Below are positions 42,905 through 57,687 of a DNA stretch of 64,000 nt, in pieces; the first letter of the stretch is position 1; the number at the start of each line of letters is the position of its first letter. A program made the translations under genes and the position numbers. The DNA is from Candidatus Woesearchaeota archaeon (lineage in GTDB: Archaea; Nanobdellota; Nanobdellia; Pacearchaeales; GW2011-AR1): NCBI GenBank assembly GCA_964419275.1, contig CAYQOY010000001.1, forward strand, positions 15,218-79,217, in the 5' to 3' direction. The notes beneath the pieces were generated by a model. It had not been told where the DNA came from. It saw only the letters and a list, made by a program, of their open reading frames with translations, and ran no database searches.

Positions 42905-45193
42905 ATGGAATTTGAACAGGGAGCAGCTCTTTATTCTTATCAAGTTAAAAAAGAGGGCGGTGAAGATGTTTTGTATATCAATTATCTAGGTGCGCCCTTT
43001 GTTCCGGATTTAGCTGGTTCTGCAGAGATTATGGAAAGAACAATGGATGCACTTATTGAAAATCCCAATGTTTCTAGAATTGTTTTTGTTCAACAAAAGA
43101 ATTACAATTACGATTTCAAAGAAACTTCTTTGATATTGGAAATTGCTCAACTTTATGTTTACTTAATTAAACAAGAACAAATACTTTCCAGAGAAAAATT
43201 AGTAACATTCAATGAACAATTTCACTCTTCAAGGTACAAGGAAATGTTTTCTTTTCTTTATTTGTTGAAAAGAGACCCGGTCTCAGCATACGCTACTCTG
43301 GAAGACACTATTGTTCACGCGAAGGTCATCTTAGAAAGAATGGGTGATGAAATGGCAAGAGACCAAGCTAATTATGTAAGACTTCTAGAGAAAATTTTCA
43401 TTTTATTAAGCTCAACAAAACTCATTTCTCAAGTCAAAGATTACATATCAGATTATTCCAAGGGAAGCAGAGAAATTTATTACCGCGTTTTCAAAGCAGA
43501 TGTAATTCCCAATTTCACTTTCACAAGGCTTGTTTCCGAATTGCCAGAAGATGCAGAGATTGTAGACCAATACAAAATTTCCAGCGGAGAGTATGATGAA
43601 TCTCTTGTTACAATTTTAAGAAGCAAAGAAGAAGCTAAAATGATTTACCATATTGTTCCTCCAGAAAATAATTTAAATGAATCTCAGAATATGCTTTTGA
43701 ATTTAGCTAAGAATGTTTTAATTGAGCACCAGCCTCGTGCAGAAGAATTTACAGACACTGAAAGAACAAGACATGTTTTTTTTAACATTGCCCGAGATTT
43801 ATTGCAAGATTTAGCGCAAACAAAAAAGATTCTCCTTAAGTATCCTGATTTAAACACCTTAGCAACAATTCTTGTAAGGCATACAATCGGTTTCGGAGTT
43901 ATCGAGGTTCTTTTGCAAGACAAAAAAATTCAGGATATTGTTTTGAATGCGCCTATTCCTTTGACTAAGATTTTTTTAAGGCATCAGGATTATGAAGAGT
44001 GTGCAACAAATATTCTTCCAAGCCAGGAAGAGGTTGACTCTTGGGCTTCAAAATTCAGAATGATTTCTGGAAGGCCTTTAGATGAAGCTAATCCTATTTT
44101 AGACACCCAATTGGAAATAGAAAAACTTAGAGCCAGAATTGCAATTGTTCAGCAGCCTCTTTCTCCAATGGGGATATCTTATGCAATTAGAAAACACAGA
44201 GAAGAGCCTTGGACATTGCCGCTGTTTATTAGAAATAGAACCCTGAATTCTTTTGCTGCAGGATTATTGAGTTTTCTTATTGATGGAGCAAGAACAATGC
44301 TTATTGCTGGAACAAGAAGCTCTGGTAAAACTTCTTTGCTGGGAAGTTTAATGCTTGAAATTTTGCCTAAAACTAGAATCATCGTTATTGAAGATTCTTT
44401 GGAGCTGCCATTGGATGCTTTAAGAAAATTAAACTACGATGTTCTCAGAATGAAGGTTCGTTCTGCTTTGCTTAAAACAACAACAGAAGTTTCAGCTTCA
44501 GATGGAATCAGAACCAGTTTAAGACTTGGAGATTCTTCTTTGATTATCGGTGAAGTTAGAAGCGCAGAAGCAAAAGCTCTTTATGAAGCAATGAGAATTG
44601 GTGCGCTTGCAAATGTCGTGGCTGGAACAATTCACGGTGCTTCACCTTATGATGTTTTTGACAGGGTTGTAAATGATTTGAATGTCCCAACAACAAGTTT
44701 CAAAGCAACAGACATAATTGTAGTTACAAATCCGATTAAATCTGCAGATGGGCTTTCTTCTAAAAAAAGAGTTTTGCTTGTAACAGAAGTTAGAAAGCAC
44801 TGGACAAAAGATCCTCTTCTTGAAAAAGGGTTTGTTGATTTGCTTAGATACAATGTTGAAAAAGATGAATTAGAACCCACAGAAGATTTGATTAATGGAG
44901 ACAGTGAAATAATCAAAAGCATTGCGTCAAGTGTTAAGGGCTGGGCTGGAAATTGGGATGCGGTTTATGATAATATTCTTTTAAGAGCTAAAATTAAGCA
45001 AGAGATAGTTGATGTTGCTGAAAGAATAGGCAATGAAAGGTTGCTTGAGGCTAAATTCAATGTTTTTGCTAATCAAGTCTTCCACAGGATTTCCAGCGAA
45101 GTTAGAGAAGAATTTGGATTGCCTTATTCAGATAAAGTTTTCCCTCGCTGGCAGAAATGGCTTAATGAGGAAATTAAGAGCGGCAAATGGTAA
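42905..45193 (+). CDS. FlaI/VirB11/GspE-family secretion ATPase with ~300-aa N-terminal extension (pilus assembly ATPase)
   Basis: Walker A AGTRSSGKTS, Asp box IIVIEDSLEL, Walker B/His box GEVRSAEA...AGTIHG. 762 aa. Confidence 0.8.
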   Translation: MEFEQGAALYSYQVKKEGGEDVLYINYLGAPFVPDLAGSAEIMERTMDALIENPNVSRIVFVQQKNYNYDFKETSLILEIAQLYVYLIKQEQILSREKLVTFNEQFHSSRYKEMFSFLYLLKRDPVSAYATLEDTIVHAKVILERMGDEMARDQANYVRLLEKIFILLSSTKLISQVKDYISDYSKGSREIYYRVFKADVIPNFTFTRLVSELPEDAEIVDQYKISSGEYDESLVTILRSKEEAKMIYHIVPPENNLNESQNMLLNLAKNVLIEHQPRAEEFTDTERTRHVFFNIARDLLQDLAQTKKILLKYPDLNTLATILVRHTIGFGVIEVLLQDKKIQDIVLNAPIPLTKIFLRHQDYEECATNILPSQEEVDSWASKFRMISGRPLDEANPILDTQLEIEKLRARIAIVQQPLSPMGISYAIRKHREEPWTLPLFIRNRTLNSFAAGLLSFLIDGARTMLIAGTRSSGKTSLLGSLMLEILPKTRIIVIEDSLELPLDALRKLNYDVLRMKVRSALLKTTTEVSASDGIRTSLRLGDSSLIIGEVRSAEAKALYEAMRIGALANVVAGTIHGASPYDVFDRVVNDLNVPTTSFKATDIIVVTNPIKSADGLSSKKRVLLVTEVRKHWTKDPLLEKGFVDLLRYNVEKDELEPTEDLINGDSEIIKSIASSVKGWAGNWDAVYDNILLRAKIKQEIVDVAERIGNERLLEAKFNVFANQVFHRISSEVREEFGLPYSDKVFPRWQKWLNEEIKSGKW

Positions 45194-45235
45194 GTTTATA
45201 GCAAGATTTATATATTTCTTAAGTTATTTTTACCT

Positions 45236-45454
45236 ATGAAACAATCAAGAAAAAAGAAATTTGACAAATCTTTATTTCTAGCCTGGCTCGCCGTGGTTAG
45301 TTATGTTATAGCTTTAATTTTTATTTCTGTGAATATAACCGGAAATGTGATAAATAATTCTGGTGCTCCAGACAGTTCCAGAATAATCAGTATCGGAACC
45401 TTTTTCTTAGGGCTTTGCTTTACTTTTTTTTATTTTAAAACTAAGAACAGATAG
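45236..45454 (+). CDS. small membrane protein between ATPase and platform genes
   Basis: 72 aa, two TM segments. Confidence 0.3.
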   Translation: MKQSRKKKFDKSLFLAWLAVVSYVIALIFISVNITGNVINNSGAPDSSRIISIGTFFLGLCFTFFYFKTKNR

Positions 45455-45511: not shown

Positions 45512-47677
45512 ATGTCTTTACCTAATCAAAATCCGCCAAGCGTAGATGATATTTTAAAAAAATACGGAAGAAAAATTGAAAAGCAAATCAACAGTTCGCC
45601 TCTTTCTTACCAAAAAGGAAATTACAGCCAGTCTTATTCCAAGTTCAAGCAAGAAATGGCTCCAGAATGGTCAAGATATGAACGATGGTGCAACATCCTT
45701 GGAAACACTTTGAAAGTAAAAGCTTCAAAAAAAGATGAAGAAAAAATCAAGAAATACTTAGAGATAGCTCATCTTGACGTTGAACCCTGGCAAGCAATTA
45801 CTCTCGGGTTAACTGCTTTTATCGGTGTTTTTTTTCTTAATTTAATTCTTTCTTTGTCTATATTTTTTATAACAACCAGTTTTCCAGGAACATTTTTTCT
45901 TTTGATGTTAATTTTTTCTTTGTTTATTTATTCTTACGTGAACAGTTATCCAGAAAGATTTGCCAACAAATGGAGGCTTAAAGCTTCATCTCAAATGGTC
46001 CCTGCTATTTTGTATGTTGTTGTTTACATGAGGCATACTCCTAATCTTGAAAAAGCAATTGCTTTTGCCGCAGAAAATATAGAATACCCCCTTTCCTTGG
46101 ATTTAAGAAAGGTTTTTTATGATGTTGAAATAGGAAAATTCTCAACAATAAAAGAAAGCTTAGATAATTACTTGGAAGTTTGGAGAGATTATTCTCCGGA
46201 ATTTATTGAGTCTTTCCATTTAATTGAAAGCAGCCTCTTTGAGCCCGGAGAAGACAGAAGAATTTCTGTTTTAGAAAAATCTATTCAAGTTGTTTTGGAT
46301 GGTGTTTATGACAGAATGCTTAAGTTTGTTCATGAAACAAAAGGCCCTGTTCAAAATACTTACATGTTGGGAACTGTTCTTCCTGTTTTAGGATTAGCGT
46401 TGCTTCCTTTAGCTTCGGTTATGATTGCAGATATGCTTAATGCAGATCATGTTTTCATGCTTTACAACTTAATTATTCCCTTTTTAGCTTTTTTCTTAAT
46501 GAATAAATACATGATGATGCGTCCAGGAGGACATGGAGAAACTTCTTTTTTAGAAAGAAACCCTAAGTATTCTTCTTTTAAAAATAATAGACATTATGTT
46601 AAAGCTTCTTTAATCGCAATTCCTTTAATTATTCTCGGATTTTTGCCTTTGATATTTCAGTATACCCCTCTTCCCGAACTTTTAGGATTACAAAAAGATT
46701 ATACTCTTGCTCAGTTGAAATTAGGCAGTTCTGAAGATCAAATGTTTTTTGGATTTGTTGGAAAACCCGGAGAACCGGTTAAAGGTCCATTTGGAATTGG
46801 TGCATCTATTCTAAGCATGTTTGTTCCTTTAGGAATCGCTCTATTCTTTTCTATTGCTTATACCAGTAAAACTAAGGAAATGATAAAAGAAAGAAATAAA
46901 ACCAAAGAGTTAGAAAAAGAATTCAACAGTTCACTTTTCCAGCTAGGAAATAGAATCGGAAATGGAACGCCTCCAGAGCTGGTTTTTAGCAAAGTTGCTG
47001 AATCTTCCAGAGGAATGAAAACTGAGGATTTCTTTAGAAAAGTTAGCTATAATATTCAAAGACTTGGAATGAGTGTTGAAAACGCTTTGTTTGAGAACAG
47101 AAGGGGAGTTATGAATGAGTACCCTTCCGGGTTAATTGCAACAAGCATGAGAATCTTAGTTGAGGCAGCCAAAAAAGGATTGCACATTGCAGCAGTTAGT
47201 TTGATGAGCATTTCAGAGTATATTAAAAATATTCAGAAAATTAATGATAGGCTAAAGGATATGCTTGCTGAAACTGTTTCAGATATGAAAAGTAATATGA
47301 CTTTCTTAACGCCTCTTCTAGCAGGTGTTGTTGTCGGACTTTCAACAATGATCACTAATATTCTGGGAAAAGTTAATCTTTTAGAAAGTTTGCAAGACCA
47401 GGAAATTTCGGGTATTGGCAATGTCTTAAAGATGATGGATATTAAATTAATGATTCCTCCTTATTTCCTTCAACTTGCAATCGGAATTTATTTGGTTCAA
47501 ATAATCTTTATTTTAACGCAAACTTTAGTCACAATAGACGCCGGTGAAGATGAGCTTGAAAGACTTAATAAAACTGGAAAAAACCTTAAGGCCGGAATGT
47601 TGTTTTACTTTTTCACTGCAGCAATTACCACTCTGATTTTATTTGCAATATCTTCTTCAGTTTTATCTGGAATGTGA
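45512..47677 (+). CDS. FlaJ/TadC-like polytopic membrane platform protein (T2SS-F-like)
   Basis: 721 aa. Two blocks of TM helices separated by cytoplasmic helical domains. Position immediately after the FlaI-like ATPase. Confidence 0.6.
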   Translation: MSLPNQNPPSVDDILKKYGRKIEKQINSSPLSYQKGNYSQSYSKFKQEMAPEWSRYERWCNILGNTLKVKASKKDEEKIKKYLEIAHLDVEPWQAITLGLTAFIGVFFLNLILSLSIFFITTSFPGTFFLLMLIFSLFIYSYVNSYPERFANKWRLKASSQMVPAILYVVVYMRHTPNLEKAIAFAAENIEYPLSLDLRKVFYDVEIGKFSTIKESLDNYLEVWRDYSPEFIESFHLIESSLFEPGEDRRISVLEKSIQVVLDGVYDRMLKFVHETKGPVQNTYMLGTVLPVLGLALLPLASVMIADMLNADHVFMLYNLIIPFLAFFLMNKYMMMRPGGHGETSFLERNPKYSSFKNNRHYVKASLIAIPLIILGFLPLIFQYTPLPELLGLQKDYTLAQLKLGSSEDQMFFGFVGKPGEPVKGPFGIGASILSMFVPLGIALFFSIAYTSKTKEMIKERNKTKELEKEFNSSLFQLGNRIGNGTPPELVFSKVAESSRGMKTEDFFRKVSYNIQRLGMSVENALFENRRGVMNEYPSGLIATSMRILVEAAKKGLHIAAVSLMSISEYIKNIQKINDRLKDMLAETVSDMKSNMTFLTPLLAGVVVGLSTMITNILGKVNLLESLQDQEISGIGNVLKMMDIKLMIPPYFLQLAIGIYLVQIIFILTQTLVTIDAGEDELERLNKTGKNLKAGMLFYFFTAAITTLILFAISSSVLSGM

Positions 47678-47739: not shown

Positions 47740-47886
47740 ATGAAGAAAAGAGGACTTGTTATAAGCTATACAACTAAAATTGTTATTCTGGCTATTCTGC
47801 TTTTGCTGATGTTGATAGGGTATGCTGCATTAAAAGAAACAGGGGTTTCATTTGTGGATAGAATAGGAGATATCTTTAAGGGTTAA
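47740..47886 (+). CDS. very small pilin-like ORF (48 aa; not in ORF track)
   Basis: MKKRG|LVISYTTKIVILAILLLLMLIGYAAL has a class-III-like N-terminus. Hand-translated; below the 60-aa track threshold. Confidence 0.25.
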   Translation: MKKRGLVISYTTKIVILAILLLLMLIGYAALKETGVSFVDRIGDIFKG

Positions 47887-47887
47887 A

Positions 47888-48913
47888 ATGGGAGAGCTTA
47901 TTCCAAACACAACAACCAAGTTTATTTTGTCTGCAGCTTTGATTATAATAATAACAGTTGCTATTGGCGCTTTGTTTTCAAATTCTTTTCTTCCTTGGAT
48001 TAAAGGTTTTATTACAGAATGGAATCCCTTCCGCCCAGCAGAAGGATGGGAATTGACAATAATAAGTAAAACTGATTTCACAGAGCCAATCCCCGAATGG
48101 GTTATTGATAGATATTTAGAAGAAACTTTTGAAGAATTAACTGAAAAAAATATCTTAAATACTGTTGGTCAAGGTTCTTCTTGTTATAACGAACCCTATC
48201 CCCTCAGAACGAATGTAAACAAAATTGAAGAAGGAAGAGACTTAACAGCTCTTTGGAAGGAATACAAAGAAAACGTAGACACAACTAATCCCTGCACCTC
48301 AAGTTGCTCTTTGAATTGGAAGTTACTTAATCAAAATGAACAAGATCGAGAAAAACTTAAAGAATATCTTTTTTTATGGGGCTTTTGTAAGAATCATAAT
48401 AATTTAGGAAATCTGCAATTCAGTAAATTATCTGACATTTCTGTTCAACCTAATTTAATTCATTTTAGAAATATGATTATTCATAAAAAAGTGTTTGAAG
48501 TAGGTTCGGATTATATCAAAAATATTCTCATTTCTCAAGGAACAGACGCATATAAAATAATTTACCCCTCTTTTTCTGGAACATATGAAAAAGTTTATTC
48601 TGAATTAATCACCGGAAGGGATTATAATGATAAAATCTATTGTCCTCTTTGGAGCAATGGGCAAATAAAAGAGGGGGGAATTTGTAAAGATTCTCGAGTT
48701 AAATCCAACGTTGTGACCTTAGTTTCTAAGGGCGGATTAAATAGAGAAGTTTCTCTTTTTATGGTTTGGACAAATGATGAAGGAAAGCTTATCTGTGAAG
48801 AAGATAAAACTGACAAGTTACTTTCTCCTCGTAGCTCTTGTACTATTAAAATGAATGGAAATAAAGAAATATTTGTTAAAGCAGCTCCTCTCGGACTTTT
48901 AGAAGGCTTTTAA
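47888..48913 (+). CDS. secreted/membrane-anchored Cys-rich protein
   Basis: N-terminal hydrophobic anchor (FILSAALIIIITVAIGALF). Multiple Cys pairs (SSCYNEP, CTSSCSLNWK, CPLWSNGQIKEGGICKD). Confidence 0.4.
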   Translation: MGELIPNTTTKFILSAALIIIITVAIGALFSNSFLPWIKGFITEWNPFRPAEGWELTIISKTDFTEPIPEWVIDRYLEETFEELTEKNILNTVGQGSSCYNEPYPLRTNVNKIEEGRDLTALWKEYKENVDTTNPCTSSCSLNWKLLNQNEQDREKLKEYLFLWGFCKNHNNLGNLQFSKLSDISVQPNLIHFRNMIIHKKVFEVGSDYIKNILISQGTDAYKIIYPSFSGTYEKVYSELITGRDYNDKIYCPLWSNGQIKEGGICKDSRVKSNVVTLVSKGGLNREVSLFMVWTNDEGKLICEEDKTDKLLSPRSSCTIKMNGNKEIFVKAAPLGLLEGF

Positions 48914-48921: not shown

Positions 48922-49533
48922 ATGAAAAATAAAAAAGGATTTTTTTTAGCAGAAGAAACGATTCGGTTGATTGTAGGGGCTCTTATTTTAGTAAGTTTAG
49001 TTTCCCTTCTTGCTTTTTTATACTACTCTTCTCAACAAGATCAAGAACTTAAATTTGCAGAGAGTTCTTTAATCTATCTCGTGAGTCGTCTTGAAGCAGG
49101 AGATAAAGAGGTTATTCTTTTTGGACCTAAAGGATGGTACCTCATAGTAAACTCTGCTTGCAGGAATCTTGAAAATGTTCCTTGTATGTGCTTGCAAAAA
49201 GGACTTGGTTTTGGAGATTCTCCTGGAGAAGCCCAAAAAAGTGTTTGCATCAAAAATGATTTGAACATTAAAGTTTATCACGGCGAGACAGTATATGAAG
49301 AGATTTCCTCAGGTGTACAAGTGATTTGCGAAAGCGCTATTATGCTTAGTCCCCCTCAAAAAATCTGGGTTAAATCTTCTCCAGATAAAAAAATTCCATA
49401 TATTTTAACATTACAAGAATCTATAGAAATTTCAAATAACGCAGAATTTAAAGAGGGATGTAAATCTTCAATAGTAGAGTCCCCTTCAAATTCAAATGAA
49501 GTTAGACCTCGTATAGAAGGGAGTGATGCATAA
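48922..49533 (+). CDS. pilin-like protein with class III signal peptide
   Basis: MKNKKG|FFLAEETIRLIVGALILVSLVSLLAFLYY (Glu at +5 after the putative cleavage site). Cys-rich mature part. Confidence 0.55.
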   Translation: MKNKKGFFLAEETIRLIVGALILVSLVSLLAFLYYSSQQDQELKFAESSLIYLVSRLEAGDKEVILFGPKGWYLIVNSACRNLENVPCMCLQKGLGFGDSPGEAQKSVCIKNDLNIKVYHGETVYEEISSGVQVICESAIMLSPPQKIWVKSSPDKKIPYILTLQESIEISNNAEFKEGCKSSIVESPSNSNEVRPRIEGSDA

Positions 49534-51623: not shown

Positions 51624-52098
51624 AAAAGCTCAAGTTGGAGAAGGAATAACCTGGATTTTCACAACAATTGTGATAATTGTTTTTTTAGTTGCAGCAGTTC
51701 TTATAACTGACAAACTAGTGGAGGTAAAAGGATGGGCAACTAAAGCGCGAGAGATTTTTTCTCTTAAAGAGCAAACAGAAAAAATTGATAAGGATTTTAT
51801 TTTTTCCAAGTCTGTTTCAAGTTTTTTGTTAGTTAAAAGTTCAGACTCTGAAAAATTGTTTGGTTTGAAACCAAGAATAATCTCTTCGGGGATAGTTGAA
51901 GTTTCGGAATTTATCTTTGGAAATCTAGACCCCGTTCATTTAGGGCCAATTGGCAATCTTATCTCTGTATTAATTAATGAAGAAGCCGGAGTTTTCAGCG
52001 GTCCGCAATCAGAGAATCTCCCTTTGAAAAATTTAGAAAATCTATTCAGCACAATTAAATCTCAAGCAAATCTCGGAGGTATTGGTGAGAAATTATAA
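51613..52098 (+). CDS. pilin-like protein with class III signal peptide
   Basis: MLNKKA|QVGEGITWIFTTIVIIVFLVAAVLIT. Start set at internal ATG 51613. Confidence 0.5.
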   Translation: MLNKKAQVGEGITWIFTTIVIIVFLVAAVLITDKLVEVKGWATKAREIFSLKEQTEKIDKDFIFSKSVSSFLLVKSSDSEKLFGLKPRIISSGIVEVSEFIFGNLDPVHLGPIGNLISVLINEEAGVFSGPQSENLPLKNLENLFSTIKSQANLGGIGEKL

Positions 52099-52106: not shown

Positions 52107-52454
52107 ATGATGAATCGAAAAAAAGCAACATCAATTCCGATTATGGTTTTAGTTATAGGTGCTTTAGTGGTTTTCACTTTTGCAATAATGAGCTTTGTGA
52201 AAAATTTATCTAGCACTAGAAGCACTTCTTTAGATTTAGAGCCATTGAAAGAAGTTTATATCGATGCAGTAGGATTTTATTTTTACAGGAATCTAGGGCA
52301 GTCAAACGAAGAAGCTTTCAATAAGATAAATAACCCTGAATCAGGAAAGTCTGTGAAATTAGAAAAAGATTATTTGACAATCTCTCGTTCAAAAGGTTCT
52401 GTTTCTGTTCTTTATCGCATTAATATTAAAGAGATTTCTTCTGAAGGTGAATAA
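52107..52454 (+). CDS. small pilin-like protein with class III signal peptide (major-pilin candidate by size)
   Basis: MMNRKKA|TSIPIMVLVIGALVVFTFAIMSF. 115 aa. Confidence 0.5.
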   Translation: MMNRKKATSIPIMVLVIGALVVFTFAIMSFVKNLSSTRSTSLDLEPLKEVYIDAVGFYFYRNLGQSNEEAFNKINNPESGKSVKLEKDYLTISRSKGSVSVLYRINIKEISSEGE

Positions 52455-52509: not shown

Positions 52510-53436
52510 ATGCACAACAAAAGAGGTCAAGAATTTGGAATAAATTCTGCTGTACTTATTGTTATAGTTATCATTGTTCTTGGAATAATTGTTGCTGGAG
52601 TTTCCATGGGCTGGGAAAATTTAACTGCCTGGATTCAGCCAGACACTGTTTCTATAACTGCAGGAAAATGCTCTACTTCTTGTGGAGTGAATAATCAAAT
52701 AGATTTTTGTTCAAGTCCTAAATCCTTTAAAGCAAGCAGAGCAACAGTTCGCGCAGTTACAAGTGACGAAGCTCTTGCAACATATAACCTTTCATATAAA
52801 AATGAGCAAAAACTATTCCAATCAGTAAGAGAAGAATATCTTAAGAAAACATTTGAATATCAGATTTATAATACTAGTGCAGGAATATATCAAATTCCTA
52901 CAGATTATAATCCTACCAAATACACACATCCAGATAATAATTCTATTAATATCTCTGATTTCCTTAAAAATAAAGGTGTCACAGACCCAGAAAATTATCT
53001 TTCTCCTTCAAAGTTAATTAAACTAATTCCTAAAGCAGGTGAAGAAGGTTACTTAAAATCTAATGCAATTTTCCCAGAATTGTTTGCACTCGATGCTTCA
53101 CCAACAGACGGGAAGAGCATTAAATTTAAGAGTTTAGATTCTTCAACAGGAGAGGACACAGAACTTAGAAATACCTTAATCGAGTTAGCTAAAGATTCTG
53201 CTACCCGAAATTATTTAACAGCAGCAAAAAATTTAATGTATTATATGCAAGTAAAAGAAAAAGAAGGTTCTATAACTGGAATTAAAGTTAATGAATTTTC
53301 TTGCGCAGCTTTATCCGAACACCCTGTTTGGAAAGAATACTTCAAGAAATGTAGAGAGGATAACTTACTTTGTGAAGGGAAAAGTGCAGCAAGCAGTTCA
53401 GACTTAGAGACCTACTTAAAGATTAAACAAAGATAG
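52510..53436 (+). CDS. pilin-like protein with class III signal peptide
   Basis: MHNKRG|QEFGINSAVLIVIVIIVLGIIVAGV. Start at internal ATG 52510. Cys-containing extracellular part. Confidence 0.5.
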   Translation: MHNKRGQEFGINSAVLIVIVIIVLGIIVAGVSMGWENLTAWIQPDTVSITAGKCSTSCGVNNQIDFCSSPKSFKASRATVRAVTSDEALATYNLSYKNEQKLFQSVREEYLKKTFEYQIYNTSAGIYQIPTDYNPTKYTHPDNNSINISDFLKNKGVTDPENYLSPSKLIKLIPKAGEEGYLKSNAIFPELFALDASPTDGKSIKFKSLDSSTGEDTELRNTLIELAKDSATRNYLTAAKNLMYYMQVKEKEGSITGIKVNEFSCAALSEHPVWKEYFKKCREDNLLCEGKSAASSSDLETYLKIKQR

Positions 53437-53504: not shown

Positions 53505-54869
53505 TTGTTTATGAAATATCAAAGAGGACAAGCTGTAGTTTCGCATAGTTTAATTTATTTTATTATTGCTTTAATGGTTCTTGTAGGCTTGTTGGTTTAC
53601 TTAACCTTGGGCAAGGAGATTATTCCTAGGCAAGACACTAATTTAGATGATTTAGCTTCTCAGTGCGATACATTGTGTTCTCTTAAAGATCAAGAAGGAT
53701 TTTGCGAGAATATCCGTCCATTAGTAATAAAAGGCAAGAAAGTGGAAACAGAAACTTGCGCTTCTCTTGCAAGAGATTATCCAAATATCTTCCAAGGATG
53801 TTCTTTTTTTAGTTGCTCTAATTCTCAGGCATACTCTTTTTATTCCTATGTCAGTTCAGGCGGGTTTATTCAACAAAGCACAGGGTTGCTTGAAAATGGG
53901 GTTATATTAAATGTATTTAATACTCAGATGGAAGATGTCCTTCCAGATGCTTTTAAAGTTAGTCTTGATGATATAACCGAAGCAAGAGCAATATTAAATA
54001 ATAAAGGCATACTTTCAGGAGCAGACATTGATGCAGGAATTGGCCCGCGATTTTCTTCTGCACTTATTCTTTTCCAGTTGGAATATCTTGGAAAAGATAA
54101 GGTTACAGGGCTTCCAAATAAAGAAACTTTAGATGAGCTAGCAAAGTTAAAAAATTCCGACGGAACAATAAACTTGCCTTCCTTTCAAAGTTGGGGCAAA
54201 CCAGAACCCACAGATTGGAGCAAGAGTCAGGGCAGTTTAAATATAAACGACTTAGTGGTTTTGCCTTCTGCAGAAAAATCCGCTTCTGGGAAAACACTAT
54301 ACGCTTTTGTCGAAAAAGAAACAGCAATTGCTTGGGCGTTTTTAATCCGAGAAGCTATGGAAGAAACAGAGCCAGAATTAGATTTAGAAAGATTTGTTTT
54401 AGTCGATGCAGACGGGGGCTATAGGCCTTTGTATAACCAAATGGTAGTGTTGTTACAATATGGGTGTTGCAAGTATAAAGATTCTTGTAAATCTTTTCCT
54501 AGCCCTCAATTAAGCACTTATGTAAATATTCCTGCTTGGGATAATAAAGATTCTGCTAAAAACTGGATTGAGAAAAATTATAATGCTTACTGCAACAACC
54601 CTGGAGAATTGGAGTTTAATAATCTCTTATCGCAGATTAATACCGGAGCTTTAAAAGGAACAGCCACTGGAGCTCATTCAAGAGGAACAGCATTAGATTT
54701 TAATTTGAAAAATAATCAGAATATAATGTCAGATGTTCAAGGAAAATGGTTAGAAGAAAATGGGAGAAATTTTGGTTTTTGCCCTTATCTAAATAAAGAC
54801 ACACCCGAACCTAATGATTATATTGAAACTTGGCATTGGGAGTATAAAGGCGTTGATGGTTGTTCTTAA
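53505..54869 (+). CDS. pilin-like N-terminus fused to peptidoglycan-binding domain and VanY/M15-like (LAS) metallopeptidase domain
   Basis: MFMKYQRG|QAVVSHSLIYFIIALMVLVGLLVYL. PG_binding_1-like AGIGPRFSSALILFQLEYLGKDKVTGLPNKETLDEL. LAS motifs H..G.A.D (AHSRGTALDF) and E.WHWEY (IETWHWEYKG). Confidence 0.6.
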   Translation: MFMKYQRGQAVVSHSLIYFIIALMVLVGLLVYLTLGKEIIPRQDTNLDDLASQCDTLCSLKDQEGFCENIRPLVIKGKKVETETCASLARDYPNIFQGCSFFSCSNSQAYSFYSYVSSGGFIQQSTGLLENGVILNVFNTQMEDVLPDAFKVSLDDITEARAILNNKGILSGADIDAGIGPRFSSALILFQLEYLGKDKVTGLPNKETLDELAKLKNSDGTINLPSFQSWGKPEPTDWSKSQGSLNINDLVVLPSAEKSASGKTLYAFVEKETAIAWAFLIREAMEETEPELDLERFVLVDADGGYRPLYNQMVVLLQYGCCKYKDSCKSFPSPQLSTYVNIPAWDNKDSAKNWIEKNYNAYCNNPGELEFNNLLSQINTGALKGTATGAHSRGTALDFNLKNNQNIMSDVQGKWLEENGRNFGFCPYLNKDTPEPNDYIETWHWEYKGVDGCS

Positions 54870-54908
54870 TTGCGAAATTATTATAAACTCTTTTTTATTT
54901 TAATAAAC

Positions 54909-55643
54909 ATGAACAAAAGAGGACAAGAGTATGTAATTACTATGATTGTAGTTCTCGCTTTAATGACTTTAATTCTTGGGCTTTATATGGGTTGGATTGA
55001 CACAAGCATTCCAGTGATAAATAGTCTTATAGGAAAAGAAAACCTTGATTTGAGAGTGCAAGAGTGTAATAATGCTTGCAATAGCATTCCTCCCCAATCA
55101 TATGCTTATTGCCAAAAAACTAGAAAGCTTACACTTCCCGATAAAAAGAAAACAGAAGGAACTTGTTACGAATTTTCTAGGGGAGAAAATATCCCCGCAG
55201 AATATAAATCTTATTTTCAATCTTGCGAAAAAATAAATTGTGAAGAATTTTTAGGTGGAGTAGAAGCAGAGGAGGAAGATGGGGGGGAAGATGAAGAAGC
55301 TGAATCGCCTTTAAATCCGGAAAATCTTATTCTCAAGATGAATGCGTATACCTTAAAAAGCGGAGAAAGTAGAGTACTAGATTTAAATAATAATAATTTA
55401 TACAAAATTATAGGATCTAATAGTGCTGCAATTCCTTTAGCAACAATCATTCTTTCTAAAGATATAAACAGCTGTGATTATCCCCCTATTAAGATTAATG
55501 CAGGAACCTATTCCCTTTTGTCAATGGTGTACGATCTTAATAACCACCAAAACGTTAAATATTTTATTGATGACACTATTGATAATGGTAAAAATCCTTG
55601 TGTTCGTTTAAATCAGTTTACCTTTAAAGAATGGCTTATCTAA
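54909..55643 (+). CDS. pilin-like protein with class III signal peptide and acidic stretch
   Basis: MNKRG|QEYVITMIVVLALMTLILGLYMGW. EAEEEDGGEDEEAES. Cys-rich. Confidence 0.5.
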   Translation: MNKRGQEYVITMIVVLALMTLILGLYMGWIDTSIPVINSLIGKENLDLRVQECNNACNSIPPQSYAYCQKTRKLTLPDKKKTEGTCYEFSRGENIPAEYKSYFQSCEKINCEEFLGGVEAEEEDGGEDEEAESPLNPENLILKMNAYTLKSGESRVLDLNNNNLYKIIGSNSAAIPLATIILSKDINSCDYPPIKINAGTYSLLSMVYDLNNHQNVKYFIDDTIDNGKNPCVRLNQFTFKEWLI

Positions 55644-55697
55644 TTCTCTTTGTTGTTTCTTTTCTCCGAAAATGTTTATAAATTCTCGAAGGCTCTA

Positions 55698-56666
55698 ATG
55701 GCTATGAGGGGAATTGAAAACAAACGAGCGCAGGGTGCATCCATTGAAACAGTCATAGGTTTTGTTTTAGGTGCAATAGTTTTGGTTTTAGCAATTTTTT
55801 ATTTCACTGGAAACTTTGATTTAATATTAAATTTGTTTTTTAGGGAGAATGTTGATAAAATTATTGCAAAATGTGATTCTTTTTGCGATTTAAAGCAAAC
55901 ATATAACTATTGCGAGTTAAATCAAAAAGTTGTTTTTTCATCAAAAGAAAAAGAACAAGGTTCTTGCTATGCTCTTTCACTGGCTTATTCATATTTTCCT
56001 AGCTGTCCTTCTTTGGATTGTCAAACTAGAGCACGACAACTTTTAAGTGATTCAAAATATGACCTTGTCGAGGGGAATACAATGAGAGGTGATAAATCTA
56101 AGATTTCCCAAGTTCTTGAATCAGCGAAAAATCTTGAAACAACAAAATCCAGCCGTTCTTGTAATTGTGGAACAAGTTGTGATGATTATGCGGGATATTT
56201 AATTGCTGCAGCACAACAAGTAAATTCAGCTGGATTTTCCAAAGATCCTTTAGATCCTTTGTTGATTGCTGCTTTGTTGATGCAAGAAACAAATTGCAAT
56301 GCTCAAGCAGGATTTCCCTACACGACTTCTGGAAAAGCATATGGGATTGCTCAAATTGTTCCGAGTGTTTGGTGTGGACAGACGCCCCTCTTAAGTGTTC
56401 AAACATCTGCTTGTGTAAACCAGCTTAAATCTGCTGAAACAAGCATACTTTCTGCTGCAGATATTTTAAAAAAGAATTATCGAGTAGGAGATAAACTGTT
56501 TGAAGGTGCTTGTATTGTTGAGTATTCTTCTAAAAAATATTCTGGCTGGGCAGCTGCATTAAGAGGCTATGTTGGTTGGGGATGTGCTGAAGGGCATGAC
56601 TCTTATGTAACAGATGTTATACTTCTTTACACTCAATTAAAAGAAAAGTATAATTCCTTGAACTAA
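55698..56666 (+). CDS. pilin-like N-terminus fused to lytic-transglycosylase (SLT/lysozyme-like) domain
   Basis: MAMRGIENKRA|QGASIETVIGFVLGAIVLVLAIFYF. SLT motifs LLMQETNCNAQAGFP (E-S/T catalytic block) and SGKAYGIAQIVPSV (G.A.GLMQ.MP.T block). Confidence 0.55.
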   Translation: MAMRGIENKRAQGASIETVIGFVLGAIVLVLAIFYFTGNFDLILNLFFRENVDKIIAKCDSFCDLKQTYNYCELNQKVVFSSKEKEQGSCYALSLAYSYFPSCPSLDCQTRARQLLSDSKYDLVEGNTMRGDKSKISQVLESAKNLETTKSSRSCNCGTSCDDYAGYLIAAAQQVNSAGFSKDPLDPLLIAALLMQETNCNAQAGFPYTTSGKAYGIAQIVPSVWCGQTPLLSVQTSACVNQLKSAETSILSAADILKKNYRVGDKLFEGACIVEYSSKKYSGWAAALRGYVGWGCAEGHDSYVTDVILLYTQLKEKYNSLN

Positions 56667-56814
56667 ATTCAAATTTCCAATTAAAAACTAAGATGTCAGA
56701 TTATGCTGTTCCGGACAAGAGAAATAAGGGAAAAGATAAGAAAAAGAATAGAAAGAAGTATCCTTACAGGCATGGCGGGAAGCAAAGAACAAAAGAGGAG
56801 ATTTAATCGTATCT

Positions 56815-57687
56815 ATGATTGAAATAATTGTTTTGGTTGCTCTTGCATTAATCTGGCTGGTATTTGCCAGTGTTCATGATGTTCGAACAACAGAAGTTCC
56901 TGACTGGCTTAATTTTTCTTTGATTGCTTTTGCACTTGGCTTCAGGTTTTTTTACTCTTTATTTGCTTTGGTAAATTTTAGTTTCTTTTTTCAAGGCTTA
57001 ATTGGATTGGGAATATTCTTTGTTTTGGGAAATTTATTTTATCATGGAAAAATGTTTGCAGGTGGAGATGCAAAGCTTATGATTGCCTTGGGAACAATTT
57101 TGCCTTTTTCCTTTAGTTTAGTTGAAAATTTGAAGCTGTTTGTCGCATTTTTGCTCGTTTTCTTTTTAACAGCTTCTATTTTTGGGATTTCCACTAGCAT
57201 TTATTTTGCAATTAAAAACAAAAACAATTTCAAAAAAGAATTCATTAAAACTTATCAGAAAAATAAAAAAATAAGCTTGGTTGTTCAAGCATTGGCTTTA
57301 ATTGTGATGATGCTTGGGTTGATTAATCAACAAGGATTATTTTATCTTGGAATTTTTGTTTTTCTAAGCCCCTTGCTTTTTAATTTTGCAAAATCTGTCG
57401 ACGAGGCTTGTATGGTTAAGCTTGTCGATTCCAATAAGCTGATGGAAGGAGACTGGCTTTACAAACCTATTTTAGTTGGAAATAAAAAAATACTTGCAAA
57501 ATGGGATGGATTAAGCAAACAAGAAATAAAGCTCATTCAAAAACATAAAAAATTTGTATGGATTAAAAAAGGAGTTCCCTTCGTGCCTGTTTTTTTGATT
57601 AGTTTTATTATACTCTGCGTTTTATTTTTGTTTTTTAAGGAATTCTTCTTGGAAACCAGATACTTTTTTCTTGCTCTGGGTGCTTAG
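56815..57687 (+). CDS. prepilin peptidase (A24 family; PibD/FlaK-like)
   Basis: Polytopic membrane protein. First catalytic Asp region SVHDVRTTEVPD. Second catalytic motif GGDAKLMIALG. Confidence 0.7.
   Translation: MIEIIVLVALALIWLVFASVHDVRTTEVPDWLNFSLIAFALGFRFFYSLFALVNFSFFFQGLIGLGIFFVLGNLFYHGKMFAGGDAKLMIALGTILPFSFSLVENLKLFVAFLLVFFLTASIFGISTSIYFAIKNKNNFKKEFIKTYQKNKKISLVVQALALIVMMLGLINQQGLFYLGIFVFLSPLLFNFAKSVDEACMVKLVDSNKLMEGDWLYKPILVGNKKILAKWDGLSKQEIKLIQKHKKFVWIKKGVPFVPVFLISFIILCVLFLFFKEFFLETRYFFLALGA

What the first reader, a model, noticed from the sequence alone, without database searches (positions are those of the whole stretch)
42905..57687. A ~15 kb type-IV-pilus-like locus: secretion ATPase, platform, ten tandem class-III-signal proteins, and a prepilin peptidase, with murein hydrolases among the pilin-like proteins
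The locus reads as FlaI/VirB11-like ATPase (762 aa), small TM protein, FlaJ/TadC-like platform (721 aa), a 48-aa mini-ORF, a Cys-rich anchored protein, then ten consecutive ORFs (48922-56666). Each of the ten begins with [KR][KR][GA] followed by a polar/acidic residue and ~20 hydrophobic residues, which is the class III (prepilin) signal-peptide pattern. An A24 prepilin peptidase (GGDAKLM) follows. Two coiled-coil/low-complexity genes lie divergently upstream. No archaellum-specific components (FlaH, FlaF/G, FlaCDE) are present, so this is a pilus or secretion system rather than a motility apparatus. Archaea do not make murein, so any peptidoglycan-directed cargo would act on bacterial cell walls (or was inherited from bacteria). 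The locus therefore looks like either a surface fibre displaying murein hydrolases or a type-II-secretion-like pathway exporting them. This fits a DPANN-type organism that attaches to, feeds on, or defends against bacteria.
Basis: partly seen in the sequence, partly recalled or inferred. Interest (0 to 1): 0.85.

Follow-up and report, generated by a model that had tools for sequence, protein, structure and literature searches.

The report
Archaeal pilus locus carrying cell-wall-cutting pilins
A tiny (DPANN, Pacearchaeota-like) archaeon encodes a type-IV-pilus-like machine in which some pilus subunits are fused to enzymes that cut bacterial cell wall, and related archaea share this design, which suggests a concrete tool for attacking or attaching to bacteria.

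Summary
On the + strand at 42905-57687 lie a GspE/FlaI-type ATPase, a small membrane protein, a ~9-TM platform-like protein, eleven (not ten) proteins with class-III-like N-termini, one signal-anchored Cys-rich protein and an A24 prepilin peptidase. The motif occurs in 11 of 12 genes here against 1 of 65 elsewhere in the window (p=2e-11). The chromosome is archaeal (PolD, Cdc6, RadA, aEF-1beta).

Protein M carries a VanY/M15 peptidase with intact metal and catalytic motifs and a weak PG_binding_1 match. Protein O carries a GH23/SLT lytic transglycosylase, supported by orthologues and a confident structure model.

Three further results:
- L, M, N and O are modular pilins. Their first ~115 residues form a complete small Cys-rich pilin that exists alone in about 1,100 protein clusters.
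- Homologous operons in Pacearchaeota, Aenigmatarchaeota and unnamed archaeal genomes also encode class-III proteins with SLT, M23, M15_4, GDSL or glucosaminidase-like domains. The SLT domain sits on different pilin scaffolds (F, H, I, K).
- The whole pilin block is a strain-variable island flanked by 99-100% identical DNA.

Best reading: a pilus or pseudopilus that presents murein hydrolases to bacterial walls. I found no paper linking DPANN murein hydrolases to pili. It is a new variant of known kinds, and its function is inferred.

The parts
41673..42488 (-). 271-aa protein, low-complexity (Q/P/Y-rich) with a C-terminal coiled-coil-like region, divergent from the operon. Possibly associated; function unknown.
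   Evidence: ORF. Only a weak Tektin-type match. 100% identical in strain contig L012.
42490..42810 (-). 106-aa coiled-coil-like protein, divergent from the ATPase gene.
   Evidence: ORF. Weak DivIC match. 98% identical in L012. A 106-aa minus-strand gene sits in the same place in L009.
42905..45193 (+). A: 762-aa secretion/assembly ATPase of the GspE/CpaF/FlaI superfamily with a long N-terminal extension.
   Evidence: Pfam T2SSE 8.5e-14, above cut-off. PDB 2oap 2e-27, CpaF 3e-22, FlaI 4e-15. NCBIfam TadA/FlaI/BasE partial hits, all below cut-offs. Walker A GTRSSGKT is readable in the translation. 47-72% identical ATPases head the related operons.
45236..45454 (+). B: 72-aa two-helix membrane protein between ATPase and platform.
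   Evidence: 38% identical to the C-terminal part of the gene in the same position in L009. 100% identical in L012.
45512..47677 (+). C: 721-aa polytopic (~9 TM) platform-like protein (FlaJ/TadC/GspF-like, assignment probable).
   Evidence: Pfam T2SSF 22.6 bits at aa 477-590, below the 25.2 cut-off. The L006 homologue hits T2SSF with its first cytoplasmic domain, E=0.012. TM scan. Always directly downstream of the ATPase in L005, L006, L009 and L012. No PDB sequence hit.
47740..47886 (+). D: 48-aa class-III-like mini-pilin (MKKRG|LVISYTTKIVILAILLLLMLIGY...), Flp-sized. Candidate major subunit.
   Evidence: Conserved 49-59-aa gene at the same position in L002, L009, L010 and L012.
47888..48913 (+). 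E: 341-aa N-terminally anchored protein with 8 Cys and no [KR][GA] site. This slot varies between genomes.
   Evidence: No Pfam or NCBIfam hit. The same slot holds an SLT-pilin in L002.
48922..49533 (+). F: 203-aa pilin-like protein, MKNKKG|FFLAEE (bacterial-style F+1/E+5).
   Evidence: F-like genes in L002, L009, L010 and L012. F-like scaffold fused to SLT in P0027 and P0031.
49635..50630 (+). G: 331-aa pilin-like protein with 8 Cys and a C-terminal Gly/Ala-rich hydrophobic segment.
   Evidence: G-like genes in L002, L009, L010 and L012.
50687..51106 (+). H: 139-aa pilin-like protein (..SKRG|ESLL..). The model is a ~50-residue N-terminal helix plus a 6-strand beta head.
51108..51623 (+). I: 171-aa pilin-like protein (MLNKKG|GQKV..).
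   Evidence: I-like genes in L002, L009, L010 and L012. I-like scaffold with an inserted SLT in P0005.
51613..52098 (+). J: 161-aa pilin-like protein (MLNKKA|QVGE..). Overlaps I by 11 nt.
52107..52454 (+). K: 115-aa pilin-like protein (MMNRKKA|TSIP..).
   Evidence: K-like N-terminus (38% identity over 65 aa) is fused to SLT in L009.
52510..53436 (+). L: 308-aa modular pilin. Cys-rich pilin module plus a C-terminal domain of unknown function that varies between strains.
   Evidence: Module similarity to M, N and O. Orthologue P0128. The middle part has no nucleotide similarity in L001.
53511..54869 (+). M: 452-aa modular pilin. Pilin module (aa 1-~115), PG_binding_1-like segment (aa ~153-210), VanY/M15 zinc peptidase (aa ~295-452).
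   Evidence: Pfam VanY 29.9 bits, above cut-off 25. PG_binding_1 16.7 bits, below cut-off 23, spanning the whole model. Alignment to VanY structures 5hnm, 6a6a and 5zhf with H-x6-D and E-x2-H conserved. Motifs kept in P0002, P0003 and P0274.
54909..55643 (+). N: 244-aa modular pilin. Pilin module plus acidic linker plus a small C-terminal domain that is swapped between strains.
   Evidence: The N-terminal 400 nt are 100% identical to L001, while the C-terminal part has no similarity. Three different C-termini in N/P0127, P0126 and P0129.
55698..56666 (+). O: 322-aa modular pilin. Pilin module plus a GH23/SLT lytic-transglycosylase domain (aa ~150-322; catalytic Glu197 in LMQETN).
   Evidence: Pfam SLT 16.9 bits, below cut-off. 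Orthologue P0172 31.5 bits and most of ~53 subfamily members carry PF01464. Glu197 invariant in 45 sequences. Model pLDDT mostly above 90 over aa 130-322. Nearly all Foldseek hits are GH23 enzymes or other lysozymes.
56815..57687 (+). P: 290-aa class III signal (prepilin) peptidase, family A24, with extra C-terminal TM segments.
   Evidence: Pfam Peptidase_A24 6.5e-13. NCBIfam FlaK 36 bits, far below cut-off. Both aspartate motifs (..VHDVR.. and ..AGGDAK..) are readable. Same gene followed by the HIT gene in L001, L010 and L011.

Best explanation
This is an archaeal type-IV-filament (pilus or pseudopilus) operon of a Pacearchaeota-like DPANN archaeon, and its subunit set includes enzyme-bearing modular pilins.

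Proposed mechanism:
1. The eleven precursors (D, F-O) insert into the membrane. The A24 peptidase P removes their short basic leaders after [KR][GA].
2. ATPase A, with platform C (and B), polymerises them through their N-terminal helices.
3. The conserved set D and F-K forms the fibre and its priming or tip complex.
4. L, M, N and O are complete small Cys-rich pilins with a C-terminal effector module attached. O carries a GH23 lytic transglycosylase that cuts murein glycan strands. M carries a peptidoglycan-binding-like segment plus an M15/VanY zinc peptidase that cuts stem peptides. L and N carry variable modules of unknown activity.
5. Presented on or at the base of the fibre, outside a cell that has no murein of its own, these enzymes would open or trim the sacculus of a bacterium that the archaeon contacts. 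That could give attachment, access to the membrane, or release of muropeptides.

Shown here: gene content, domain identities, intact catalytic motifs, pilin-module fusion, recurrence across DPANN lineages, and strain-level hypervariability.

Inferred: leader cleavage, assembly into a fibre, enzyme activity, and bacterial walls as the target.
For: Machinery:
- ATPase and A24 peptidase pass Pfam cut-offs.
- ATPase relatives are archaeal GspE, CpaF and FlaI.
- Class-III-like N-termini are in 11 of 12 genes of the block against 1 of 65 outside it.
- The model of H has a ~50-residue N-terminal helix plus a beta head.

Enzymes:
- M: VanY above cut-off, with H-x6-D, E-x2-H and DADxxYR motifs conserved in four diverged homologues. 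There is a weak PG_binding_1 match covering the whole model.
- O: the catalytic Glu is invariant across 45 homologues, the domain model is confident, and nearly all structural neighbours are GH23 enzymes or other lysozymes. Orthologue P0172 passes the SLT cut-off.

Fusion to true pilins:
- The shared N-terminal ~115 aa of L/M/N/O finds 1,127 clusters at E<=1e-3. Most are 100-200-aa stand-alone proteins with M.NKRGQGLS.. leaders. A minority are extended with SLT, VanY or an HExxH domain.

Recurrence:
- L005 and L006 (Aenigmatarchaeota and an unnamed archaeon) have ATPase (47-55% identity), platform, class-III genes, an SLT class-III protein, plus M23 (1.3e-24), GDSL (1.5e-13), M15_4 (9.5e-17) and glucosaminidase-like (28 bits) class-III proteins.
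- L009 and L010 keep the operon order, with SLT on the K-like or the H-like pilin.
- 33 of 53 SLT-subfamily proteins have class-III-like N-termini, and several of the remaining 20 are visibly N-terminally truncated fragments.

Selection pattern:
- A same-species strain is 99-100% identical on both sides, but its pilin genes are only 30-54% identical.
- C-terminal modules are swapped between relatives while catalytic motifs persist.

The organism is archaeal. By established knowledge, archaea do not make murein.
Against: - No experiment and no dedicated class-III predictor (FlaFind, SignalP) could be run. Cleavage is inferred from a home-made pattern.
- The platform's T2SSF hit is sub-threshold. 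It has no PDB sequence relative and no detectable internal repeat.
- O's own SLT score is below the cut-off, and Foldseek E-values are weak (0.03-0.3).
- GH23 also includes a chitinase, so the glycan substrate is not proven.
- H's structural matches to pilins are weak and mixed with unrelated folds.
- No obvious major pilin of the Cys-rich family without an extension lies in the locus.
- Only 64 kb of the genome was seen, so absence of murein or pseudomurein synthesis genes in this organism was not checked.
- In bacteria, lytic transglycosylases encoded in pilus and secretion operons serve the cell's own wall. The mere presence of one in the operon therefore does not by itself indicate attack.
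Confidence: 0.65

Rival explanations
1. Bindosome-like surface array for scavenging. The class-III enzymes are not carried on a long pilus. They stay anchored near the membrane in a short pseudopilus-like assembly, like the class-III sugar-binding proteins of the Sulfolobus bindosome. There they digest free peptidoglycan debris from dead bacteria to supply amino sugars and amino acids.
For: - The ATPase has a partial match to bindosome BasE, 77 bits.
- Archaeal class-III signals on non-pilin functional proteins are a known theme (preprint 10.64898/2026.04.22.720090).
- Published work on Pacearchaeota proposes peptidoglycan from dead cells as an amino-acid source (PMC11537232).
- No stand-alone major pilin of the Cys-rich family lies in the locus.
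Against: - The BasE match is far below its cut-off of 1000 bits.
- The locus keeps a conserved set of six to seven small pilin-like genes plus a Flp-sized mini-pilin, as expected for a real fibre with a priming complex.
- The strain-level replacement of the whole pilin block is what exposed, partner- or phage-contacted structures show. It is less expected for a purely digestive array.
Confidence: 0.2
2. Type-II-secretion-like export. The small pilin-like proteins form a piston-like pseudopilus that releases the hydrolases into the medium as soluble bacteriolytic or defensive enzymes.
For: - The locus resembles the inner-membrane core of T2SS (ATPase, platform, several pseudopilin-like proteins, prepilin peptidase).
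Against: - Bacterial T2SS cargo carries Sec or Tat signals and is soluble. Here the enzymes themselves carry the class-III leader and the hydrophobic helix, and they sit behind a complete pilin module.
- The SLT domain is fused to at least five different pilin scaffolds. That makes sense for display, not for release.
- Release would need an additional protease, for which there is no evidence.
Confidence: 0.07
3. Housekeeping role for the archaeon's own envelope. The transglycosylase and peptidase open a path through the cell's own wall polymer for pilus assembly, as VirB1, BfpH, FlgJ or EtgA do in bacteria. Alternatively, the operon is a bacterial import that kept these genes as relics.
For: - Dedicated lytic transglycosylases in bacterial pilus, flagellar and secretion operons are well established (background knowledge).
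- The SLT domain is present in every related operon examined, as expected of a machine component.
Against: - The chromosome is archaeal, and archaea are not known to make murein (established knowledge; also stated in PMC8204110).
- Pseudomurein has beta-1,3 links and L-amino acids, so it is not a GH23 or VanY substrate.
- The leaders ([KR]G|Q), the FlaK-like peptidase and the archaeal-GspE-like ATPase are of archaeal type.
- Operons carry up to three different wall hydrolases plus a lipase-family enzyme, more than a gap-maker needs.
- Catalytic motifs are conserved while sequences diversify, so these are not relics.
Confidence: 0.05

Closest known systems
Archaeal type IV pili / type IV filament systems (Aap, Ups, Epd, haloarchaeal Pil; Makarova, Koonin & Albers 2016, PMC4858521; Sivabalasarma & Albers 2026 preprint)
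   Same: A GspE/FlaI-family ATPase next to a polytopic platform gene, several class-III-signal subunits, and an A24 (PibD/FlaK/EppA-type) peptidase. No archaellum accessory genes.
   Different: Four subunits carry C-terminal modules, two of them murein hydrolases. The ATPase has a ~400-aa N-terminal extension, and its NCBIfam matches fall far below every family cut-off. Neither survey contains any of the words hydrolase, peptidoglycan, murein or transglycosylase.
Modular type IV pilins of bacteria (S. sanguinis PilB/PilC; Raynaud et al. 2021, PMC8179133)
   Same: A small pilin module carries a functional module at its C-terminus for presentation by the fibre. L-O show exactly this: the module alone is a widespread stand-alone pilin.
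   Different: The bacterial census was based on the bacterial IPR012902 motif and listed mostly binding modules and one peptidase. The words 'archaea' and 'hydrolase' do not occur in that paper. Here the pilins are archaeal, the modules are cell-wall hydrolases, and the same enzyme domain moves between scaffolds.
Murein-type lytic transglycosylase (GH23) proteins of Woesearchaeota/Pacearchaeota (Castelle 2015/2021, PMC8204110; Vigneron 2022, PMC9723730)
   Same: GH23/SLT domains in small-genome DPANN archaea, interpreted as tools for binding or degrading bacterial walls. L008 carries such a large (1,326-aa) protein.
   Different: Those reports describe large extracellular proteins or CAZy counts and never mention pili (0 occurrences). 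Here the domain sits on 250-480-aa class-III/pilin proteins inside a type-IV-filament operon, together with M15, M23 and other hydrolases.
Specialised lytic transglycosylases of bacterial envelope-spanning machines (VirB1, BfpH, R64 PilT, FlgJ, EtgA)
   Same: An SLT-family enzyme encoded inside the operon of a filament or secretion machine.
   Different: The bacterial enzymes act on the producer's own sacculus and are Sec-exported, not pilin fusions. This comparison rests on background knowledge and was not tested here.
Sulfolobus bindosome (BasEF with class-III-signal sugar-binding proteins)
   Same: Functional, non-structural proteins receive class-III signals and depend on a type-IV-filament-type ATPase and platform. 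The ATPase has a partial BasE match.
   Different: The cargo here is enzymes rather than binding proteins. The BasE match is 77 bits against a cut-off of 1000, and a full set of small pilin-like genes is present.

Membership tests
Type IV filament (TFF) superfamily, archaeal pilus-type | Cytoplasmic assembly ATPase of the GspE/PilB/FlaI family | tested here: met
   Pfam T2SSE 51.4 bits against cut-off 24.9. PDB 2oap 2e-27, CpaF 3e-22, FlaI 4e-15. Walker A GTRSSGKT is visible in the translation.
Type IV filament (TFF) superfamily, archaeal pilus-type | Polytopic platform protein of the GspF/PilC/TadC/FlaJ family | tested here: inconclusive
   T2SSF 22.6 bits, below cut-off 25.2. The homologue in L006 hits with its other cytoplasmic domain at E=0.012. 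No PDB sequence hit with the single sequence or the profile. No internal repeat by hhalign, and ~9 TM segments. Conserved position after the ATPase in five loci.
Type IV filament (TFF) superfamily, archaeal pilus-type | Class III signal (prepilin) peptidase, family A24, with two catalytic aspartates | tested here: met
   Peptidase_A24 49.5 bits against cut-off 26.5. HD(V)R and GGDAK motifs are visible. FlaK-like by NCBIfam, though far below the equivalog cut-off.
Type IV filament (TFF) superfamily, archaeal pilus-type | Subunits with a class III signal peptide (short basic leader ending in G/A, then ~20 hydrophobic residues forming alpha-1N) | tested here: met
   Eleven proteins match. 11 of 12 in the block against 1 of 65 outside, p=2e-11. 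The H model has the long N-terminal helix plus a beta head. The pattern is home-made. FlaFind and SignalP were not available.
Type IV filament (TFF) superfamily, archaeal pilus-type | Leader cleavage and polymerisation into a filament | not testable with these tools
   Needs biochemistry or imaging.
Archaellum | FlaH, FlaF/FlaG, FlaC/D/E or FlaX, and archaellin genes next to FlaI/FlaJ | tested here: not met
   No such Pfam or NCBIfam family in any of the 16 locus proteins or the four upstream ones. The FlaI model scores 127 bits against a cut-off of 550.
GH23 / SLT lytic transglycosylase (protein O) | SLT-domain sequence signature with the catalytic Glu (E-S/T motif) | tested here: met
   O alone is sub-threshold at 16.9 against 21.3 bits. 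Orthologue P0172 scores 31.5 bits, L005 22.5 and L008 40 bits, and most subfamily members are pre-annotated PF01464. Glu197 is invariant in 45 sequences.
GH23 / SLT lytic transglycosylase (protein O) | Lysozyme-like alpha-helical fold | tested here: met
   Model pLDDT is mostly above 90 over aa 130-322. Top Foldseek PDB hits are Slt70, MltF, MltE, goose-type lysozymes and a GH23 chitinase, with probabilities up to 1.0 but E-values of only 0.03-0.3.
GH23 / SLT lytic transglycosylase (protein O) | Cleavage of MurNAc-GlcNAc bonds in murein | not testable with these tools
   Enzyme assay needed. GH23 also contains a chitinase.
Peptidase M15 / VanY (LAS zinc peptidases) (protein M) | Family HMM above cut-off, plus the zinc ligands H-x6-D...H and the catalytic Glu (E-x2-H) | tested here: met
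   VanY 29.9 bits against cut-off 25. HSRGTALD (389-396) and ETWH (439-442) align to the VanY structure 5hnm, with 6a6a and 5zhf matching the same residues in the hit table. Conserved in P0002, P0003 and P0274. Only the C-terminal half of the model is matched.
Modular type IV pilins | A complete pilin module that also exists on its own, followed by a separable functional module | tested here: met
   L/M/N/O share aa 1-~115. The profile finds 1,127 clusters, mostly 100-200-aa stand-alone proteins, with some carrying SLT, VanY or HExxH extensions.
Type II secretion system | Soluble Sec/Tat-exported cargo distinct from the pseudopilins; outer-membrane secretin | tested here: not met
   The hydrolases themselves carry class-III leaders and pilin modules. 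No secretin family was found.
Bindosome assembly system (BasEF) | BasE/BasF equivalogs with class-III substrate-binding proteins | tested here: not met
   BasE model scores 77.5 bits against a cut-off of 1000. No substrate-binding-protein domains in the locus.

The most novel reading that the evidence does not exclude
Small-genome DPANN archaea (Pacearchaeota, Aenigmatarchaeota, probably Woesearchaeota) use a dedicated type-IV-filament organelle as a wall-breaching device against bacteria. Its pilins carry interchangeable cell-wall hydrolases (GH23, M15, M23, glucosaminidase, SGNH/GDSL, zincin). The strain-variable pilin and cargo island sets which bacteria can be attached to or parasitised. 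This would be a cross-domain episymbiosis or predation apparatus with no described counterpart.
Probability: 0.4. Interest if true: 0.88.

Novelty: new variant of a known kind. Interest (0 to 1): 0.72.

Why it matters
No host is known for most Pacearchaeota and Woesearchaeota. Whether some DPANN archaea live on bacteria rather than on archaea is an open question. So far it is argued only from the presence of GH23 genes (PMC8204110, PMC9723730, PMC11537232).

This locus ties those enzymes physically to a surface machine. The hydrolases are pilin fusions encoded inside a type-IV-filament operon, and the arrangement recurs in at least two named DPANN lineages. The enzyme domain hops between pilin scaffolds. 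That turns a vague inference into concrete experiments:
- leader cleavage by the in-locus peptidase;
- murein hydrolysis by two small domains;
- fibre labelling in enrichments.

It also extends the 'modular pilin' idea to archaea and to enzymatic, wall-degrading modules. In addition it identifies a large unannotated family of small Cys-rich archaeal pilins (about 1,100 clusters at 50% identity).

The sharp strain-level replacement of the pilin block inside otherwise identical DNA marks it as a candidate determinant of partner or phage specificity.

Tried and rejected
- The look-up of encoding contigs for the exact M protein found nothing on record. The listing of cluster members gave no names or accessions for the window's own contig, so the organism is named only through relatives.
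- PDB sequence searches for O and for the platform, both as a single sequence and as a 5-sequence profile, gave nothing useful.
- hhalign of the two halves of the platform found no internal repeat.
- NCBIfam gave no hit for any pilin-like protein or hydrolase, and only far-sub-cut-off hits for the ATPase and peptidase.
- The N-terminal Cys-rich module of O was modelled at low confidence, so its fold is not established.
- Considered and rejected:
  - CPR bacterium: PolD, Cdc6, RadA and aEF-1beta are present.
  - Archaellum: no accessory genes.
  - Classical T2SS: the cargo carries pilin modules.
  - Sec-type signal peptides: the basic residues and G/A lie before, not after, the hydrophobic stretch, and an A24 peptidase is in the locus. 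No dedicated predictor could be run.
- Not used: the metagenome contigs and viral-contig scans.

Full report
**1. What is in the sequence**

The window is AT-rich (31-36% G+C throughout) and archaeal. It encodes the two PolD subunits, Cdc6/Orc1 and TyrRS. In the syntenic contig L001 the genes downstream of the locus are aEF-1beta, an RPA-like OB protein, RadA and MetK. A 5S rRNA and one tRNA are present.

Sixteen genes lie head to tail on the + strand between 42905 and 57687, with gaps of -11 to 148 nt:
- A, ATPase, 762 aa.
- B, membrane protein, 72 aa.
- C, membrane protein with about nine hydrophobic segments, 721 aa.
- D, 48 aa.
- E, 341 aa.
- F to O, ten proteins.
- P, 290 aa.

**2. Core machinery**

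A passes Pfam's T2SSE cut-off (51.4 bits). Its best solved relatives are the Archaeoglobus GspE (2oap, 2e-27), the Tad ATPase CpaF and FlaI. NCBIfam models for TadA, FlaI and BasE match only in part and far below their cut-offs. A is therefore a member of the superfamily but of no named equivalog.

P passes Peptidase_A24 (49.5 bits). It shows both aspartate motifs in the translation.

C is the weak point:
- T2SSF scores 22.6 bits against a cut-off of 25.2.
- A homologue in L006 hits the same model with its other cytoplasmic domain.
- PDB searches with the sequence and with a five-member profile found nothing.
- hhalign found no internal repeat.

Its size, topology and invariant position directly after the ATPase in five related loci make 'platform' the probable assignment, but not a proven one. 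No archaellum-specific family was found in any locus protein.

**3. The class-III pattern**

D and F-O all begin with a short basic leader ending in [KR][GA], followed at once by about 20 hydrophobic residues. Five of them have Q at +1. A simple pattern of my own finds this in 11 of 12 gene-like ORFs of 47.7-56.7 kb and in 1 of 65 elsewhere (a 1,710-aa subtilase). Fisher p is 2e-11.

A gene of 49-59 aa sits in the same place in L002, L009, L010 and L012. Its mature size recalls Flp/Tad pilins, so it is a candidate major subunit (inference). E has a signal anchor but no cleavage motif.

**4. The hydrolases**

*Protein M.* It scores 29.9 bits on VanY (cut-off 25). It aligns to solved VanY D,D-carboxypeptidases (5hnm, 6a6a, 5zhf) with the H-x6-D and E-x2-H motifs in place (HSRGTALD 389-396, ETWH 439-442). 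An upstream DADGGYR motif is also kept. All three motifs persist in P0002, P0003 and the distant P0274. Residues ~153-210 match PG_binding_1 over the whole model, but below the cut-off (16.7 against 23 bits).

*Protein O.* It scores only 16.9 bits on SLT (cut-off 21.3) and has no PDB sequence hit. Other evidence supports the assignment:
- A profile of seven relatives retrieves a sharply bounded subfamily of about 53 proteins (E<1e-17, then a gap to fungal GH23 at 1e-9). Most are pre-annotated PF01464.
- Glu197 of the LMQE[ST] motif is invariant in 45 sequences.
- The modelled domain (aa 130-322) is confident, with pLDDT mostly above 90.
- Nearly all its Foldseek neighbours are GH23 enzymes or other lysozymes: Slt70, MltF, MltE, goose-type and hen/human lysozymes, and a GH23 chitinase. 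Probabilities are high but E-values weak.
- An orthologue with the same architecture, P0172, passes the SLT cut-off (31.5 bits).

**5. L, M, N and O are modular pilins**

The four proteins share their first ~115 residues. This comprises the leader, the helix and a Cys-rich head with C-x3-C...C...C...C spacing (blastp 1e-5 to 1e-13).

A profile of this module was searched against 1.84 billion representative proteins. It found 1,127 clusters at E<=1e-3 and 399 at E<=1e-10. Most hits are 100-200-aa proteins that consist of the module alone and begin M.NKRGQGLS.... Pfam does not cover them. The module is therefore a complete, widespread small pilin.

About 10 of the best 150 hits are extended:
- with SLT (P0172);
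- with VanY (P0274, P0002);
- with a ~430-aa domain containing HExxH (P0196, P0232);
- with Cys-rich tails.

This is the 'modular pilin' design described for bacteria (PMC8179133), here in archaea and with enzymes as modules.

**6. The arrangement recurs**

A scan of GTDB species genomes with the SLT-domain alignment returned five loci, in Pacearchaeota, Aenigmatarchaeota, Woesearchaeota and an unnamed archaeon.

L005 and L006 have the following order:
- an ATPase 55% and 47% identical to A;
- a platform 27% identical to C (E about 1e-85);
- a large class-III protein;
- a small Cys-rich pilin;
- more class-III genes;
- an SLT class-III protein of 476-483 aa.

The neighbouring class-III proteins carry further hydrolase domains:

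| Locus | Domain | Score |
|---|---|---|
| L005 | Peptidase_M23 | 1.3e-24 |
| L005 | GDSL/SGNH hydrolase | 1.5e-13 |
| L006 | Peptidase_M15_4 | 9.5e-17 |
| L006 | glucosaminidase-like | 28 bits, cut-off 30.2 |

L009 (ATPase 72%, platform 61% identical) keeps the order A-B-C-D-F-G-H-I-J. Its next gene has a K-like N-terminus fused to SLT. L010 (peptidase 53%, followed by the same HIT gene) has SLT on the H-like gene.

Among the subfamily, SLT is fused to several scaffolds:
- H-like (P0026, P0029, P0034, P0040, P0042, P0047, P0049, P0051);
- F-like (P0027, P0031);
- an I-like scaffold (P0005);
- the Cys-rich module (O, P0172).

Of the 53 proteins, 33 show a class-III-like N-terminus by my pattern, and several of the remaining 20 are visibly N-terminally truncated fragments. 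The domain is thus retained in the operon while its carrier changes. This argues that what is selected is its presentation by the filament machinery.

**7. Strain variation**

Two contigs from one sample (L012, L011) belong to the same species.

| Window region | Identity to L012/L011 |
|---|---|
| up to 42.1 kb | 100% (nt) |
| ATPase gene | 94-99% (nt) |
| platform gene, from ~45.7 kb | falls to 69-90% (nt) |
| 47.7-56.69 kb | almost none (four short 66-76% HSPs); E-M proteins 30-54% identical (aa) |
| 56,689 to the window end | 99% (nt) |

The 3' part of the platform gene and the whole pilin block therefore form an ~11-kb replacement island.

A more distant relative (L001, background 84-87% nucleotide identity) behaves differently. 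The C-terminal parts of L, M and N have no nucleotide similarity, while the first 400 nt of N are 100% identical. M's VanY part is closer to the distant P0274 (40-57%) than to the close P0003 (21-47%). Its N-terminus shows the reverse pattern.

In the L011 strain the genes before the peptidase are:
- a Cys-rich-module protein with a zincin HEIGH motif (M64-like, sub-threshold);
- a 202-aa protein;
- a NAGPA phosphodiester glycosidase (59 bits).

Module swapping with conserved catalytic motifs is the pattern expected of exposed proteins that meet a variable partner, such as a host, prey or virus. This is inference.

**8. Mechanism and rivals**

The best-supported reading (confidence 0.65) is a type-IV filament whose subunits include enzyme-bearing pilins that act on murein outside a cell with no murein of its own. 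The target would then be bacterial wall.

A bindosome-like, membrane-proximal digestive array (0.2) fits the class-III-on-enzymes theme and published ideas on peptidoglycan scavenging. It explains the conserved multi-pilin set and the hypervariable island less well.

T2SS-like release (0.07) is disfavoured because the enzymes are themselves pilin fusions.

A self-directed wall-remodelling role (0.05) conflicts with the archaeal identity. It also conflicts with the number of hydrolases per operon and with the archaeal type of leaders, peptidase and ATPase.

Nothing here shows cleavage, assembly, activity or contact with bacteria.

**9. What is known**

GH23 genes in Pacearchaeota and Woesearchaeota, and the idea that they point to bacterial partners, are published (PMC8204110, PMC9723730, PMC11537232). 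DPANN genome surveys list extracellular M23 or GH23 enzymes and type IV pili side by side without linking them (PMC8561730).

The archaeal type IV pilus surveys do not mention hydrolases. Full-text searches that combined archaea or DPANN with pili or pilins and murein-hydrolase terms returned no paper describing this link. The search covers open-access papers and bioRxiv only, so an earlier description elsewhere cannot be excluded.

I rate the finding as a new variant of known kinds (archaeal type IV filaments, modular pilins, DPANN GH23 proteins), with interest 0.72.

Noticed in passing
window 45700-56690 (compared with L012 and L011): The 3' part of the platform gene plus all pilin-like genes form an ~11-kb island with almost no nucleotide similarity to a same-species strain. 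That strain's flanks are 99-100% identical, and its proteins E-M are only 30-54% identical.
   Followed up: yes
window 54861-55260 vs L001 2290-2689: A 400-nt block (the N-terminal pilin module of N) is 100% identical to a relative whose background identity is 84-87%, and the sequence on both sides is unalignable. This looks like recent recombination or gene conversion.
   Followed up: partly
window 24630-29762 (+): A 1,710-aa subtilase (Peptidase_S8 2.9e-59, Inhibitor_I9, weak FG-GAP repeats). It is the only protein outside the locus whose N-terminus (MRNKNFIKA|FVFLFVVVVLLL) fits my class-III pattern. It may be another surface enzyme handled by the same peptidase, or just a Sec signal.
   Followed up: partly
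window 49635-50630 (G); also L002 12043-13128, L009 7675-8628, L010 8611-9723: The G family has, besides the class-III N-terminus, a conserved Gly/Ala-rich hydrophobic stretch of ~50 residues near the C-terminus (GGTLLATGGTAAPIVMGISTVAKGTAIGLAGAGTVGATL). This is glycine-zipper-like. It could be a second membrane anchor or a membrane-inserting element. The large class-III proteins of L005 and L006 also end Gly-rich.
   Followed up: no
window 40494-41009 and 41059-41664 (+); L002 9104-9676 (-): Two paralogous polytopic membrane proteins without family hits lie just upstream of the divergent coiled-coil genes. A homologue sits next to the pilin cluster in the Pacearchaeota contig L002, although the ATPase and platform are absent there.
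   Followed up: partly
L005 10503-13066; L006 7131-7778 and 10467-11441: Class-III proteins in homologous operons of other DPANN genomes carry Peptidase_M23, a GDSL/SGNH hydrolase, Peptidase_M15_4 and a glucosaminidase-like domain.
   Followed up: yes
L011 1-4083: In a same-species strain the genes before the peptidase are a Cys-rich-module protein with a zincin HEIGH motif (M64-like, 23.7 bits against cut-off 26), a 202-aa secreted-looking protein, and a NAGPA phosphodiester glycosidase (59 bits). NAGPA enzymes cut GlcNAc-1-phosphodiester links, a bond type used to attach bacterial wall polymers; that link to wall polymers is my inference.
   Followed up: partly
P0130-P0274 (one search hits); L005 7159-7494, L006 6745-7071: A large family of small (100-200 aa) Cys-rich archaeal pilins (M.NKRGQGLSTNAIILIVLG... 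C-x3-C...), with about 1,100 clusters at 50% identity and no Pfam model.
   Followed up: partly
window 48922-49533 (F); P0027: F and its relatives have a bacterial-style prepilin site, G|F-x-L-x-E with Phe at +1 and Glu at +5. The other ten have archaeal-style sites, often G/A|Q.
   Followed up: no
window 57635-58231 (-) vs 56815-57687 (+): The convergent HIT-family gene overlaps the 3' end of the peptidase gene by ~50 nt and has a long Lys/Glu-rich tail. The peptidase-HIT pairing is conserved in L001, L010 and L011.
   Followed up: no
window 16047-22437 (+): Cdc6/Orc1 is directly followed by the PolD small and large subunits, a typical neighbourhood of an archaeal replication origin. The cumulative GC skew rises almost monotonically across the window with no turning point.
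   Followed up: no
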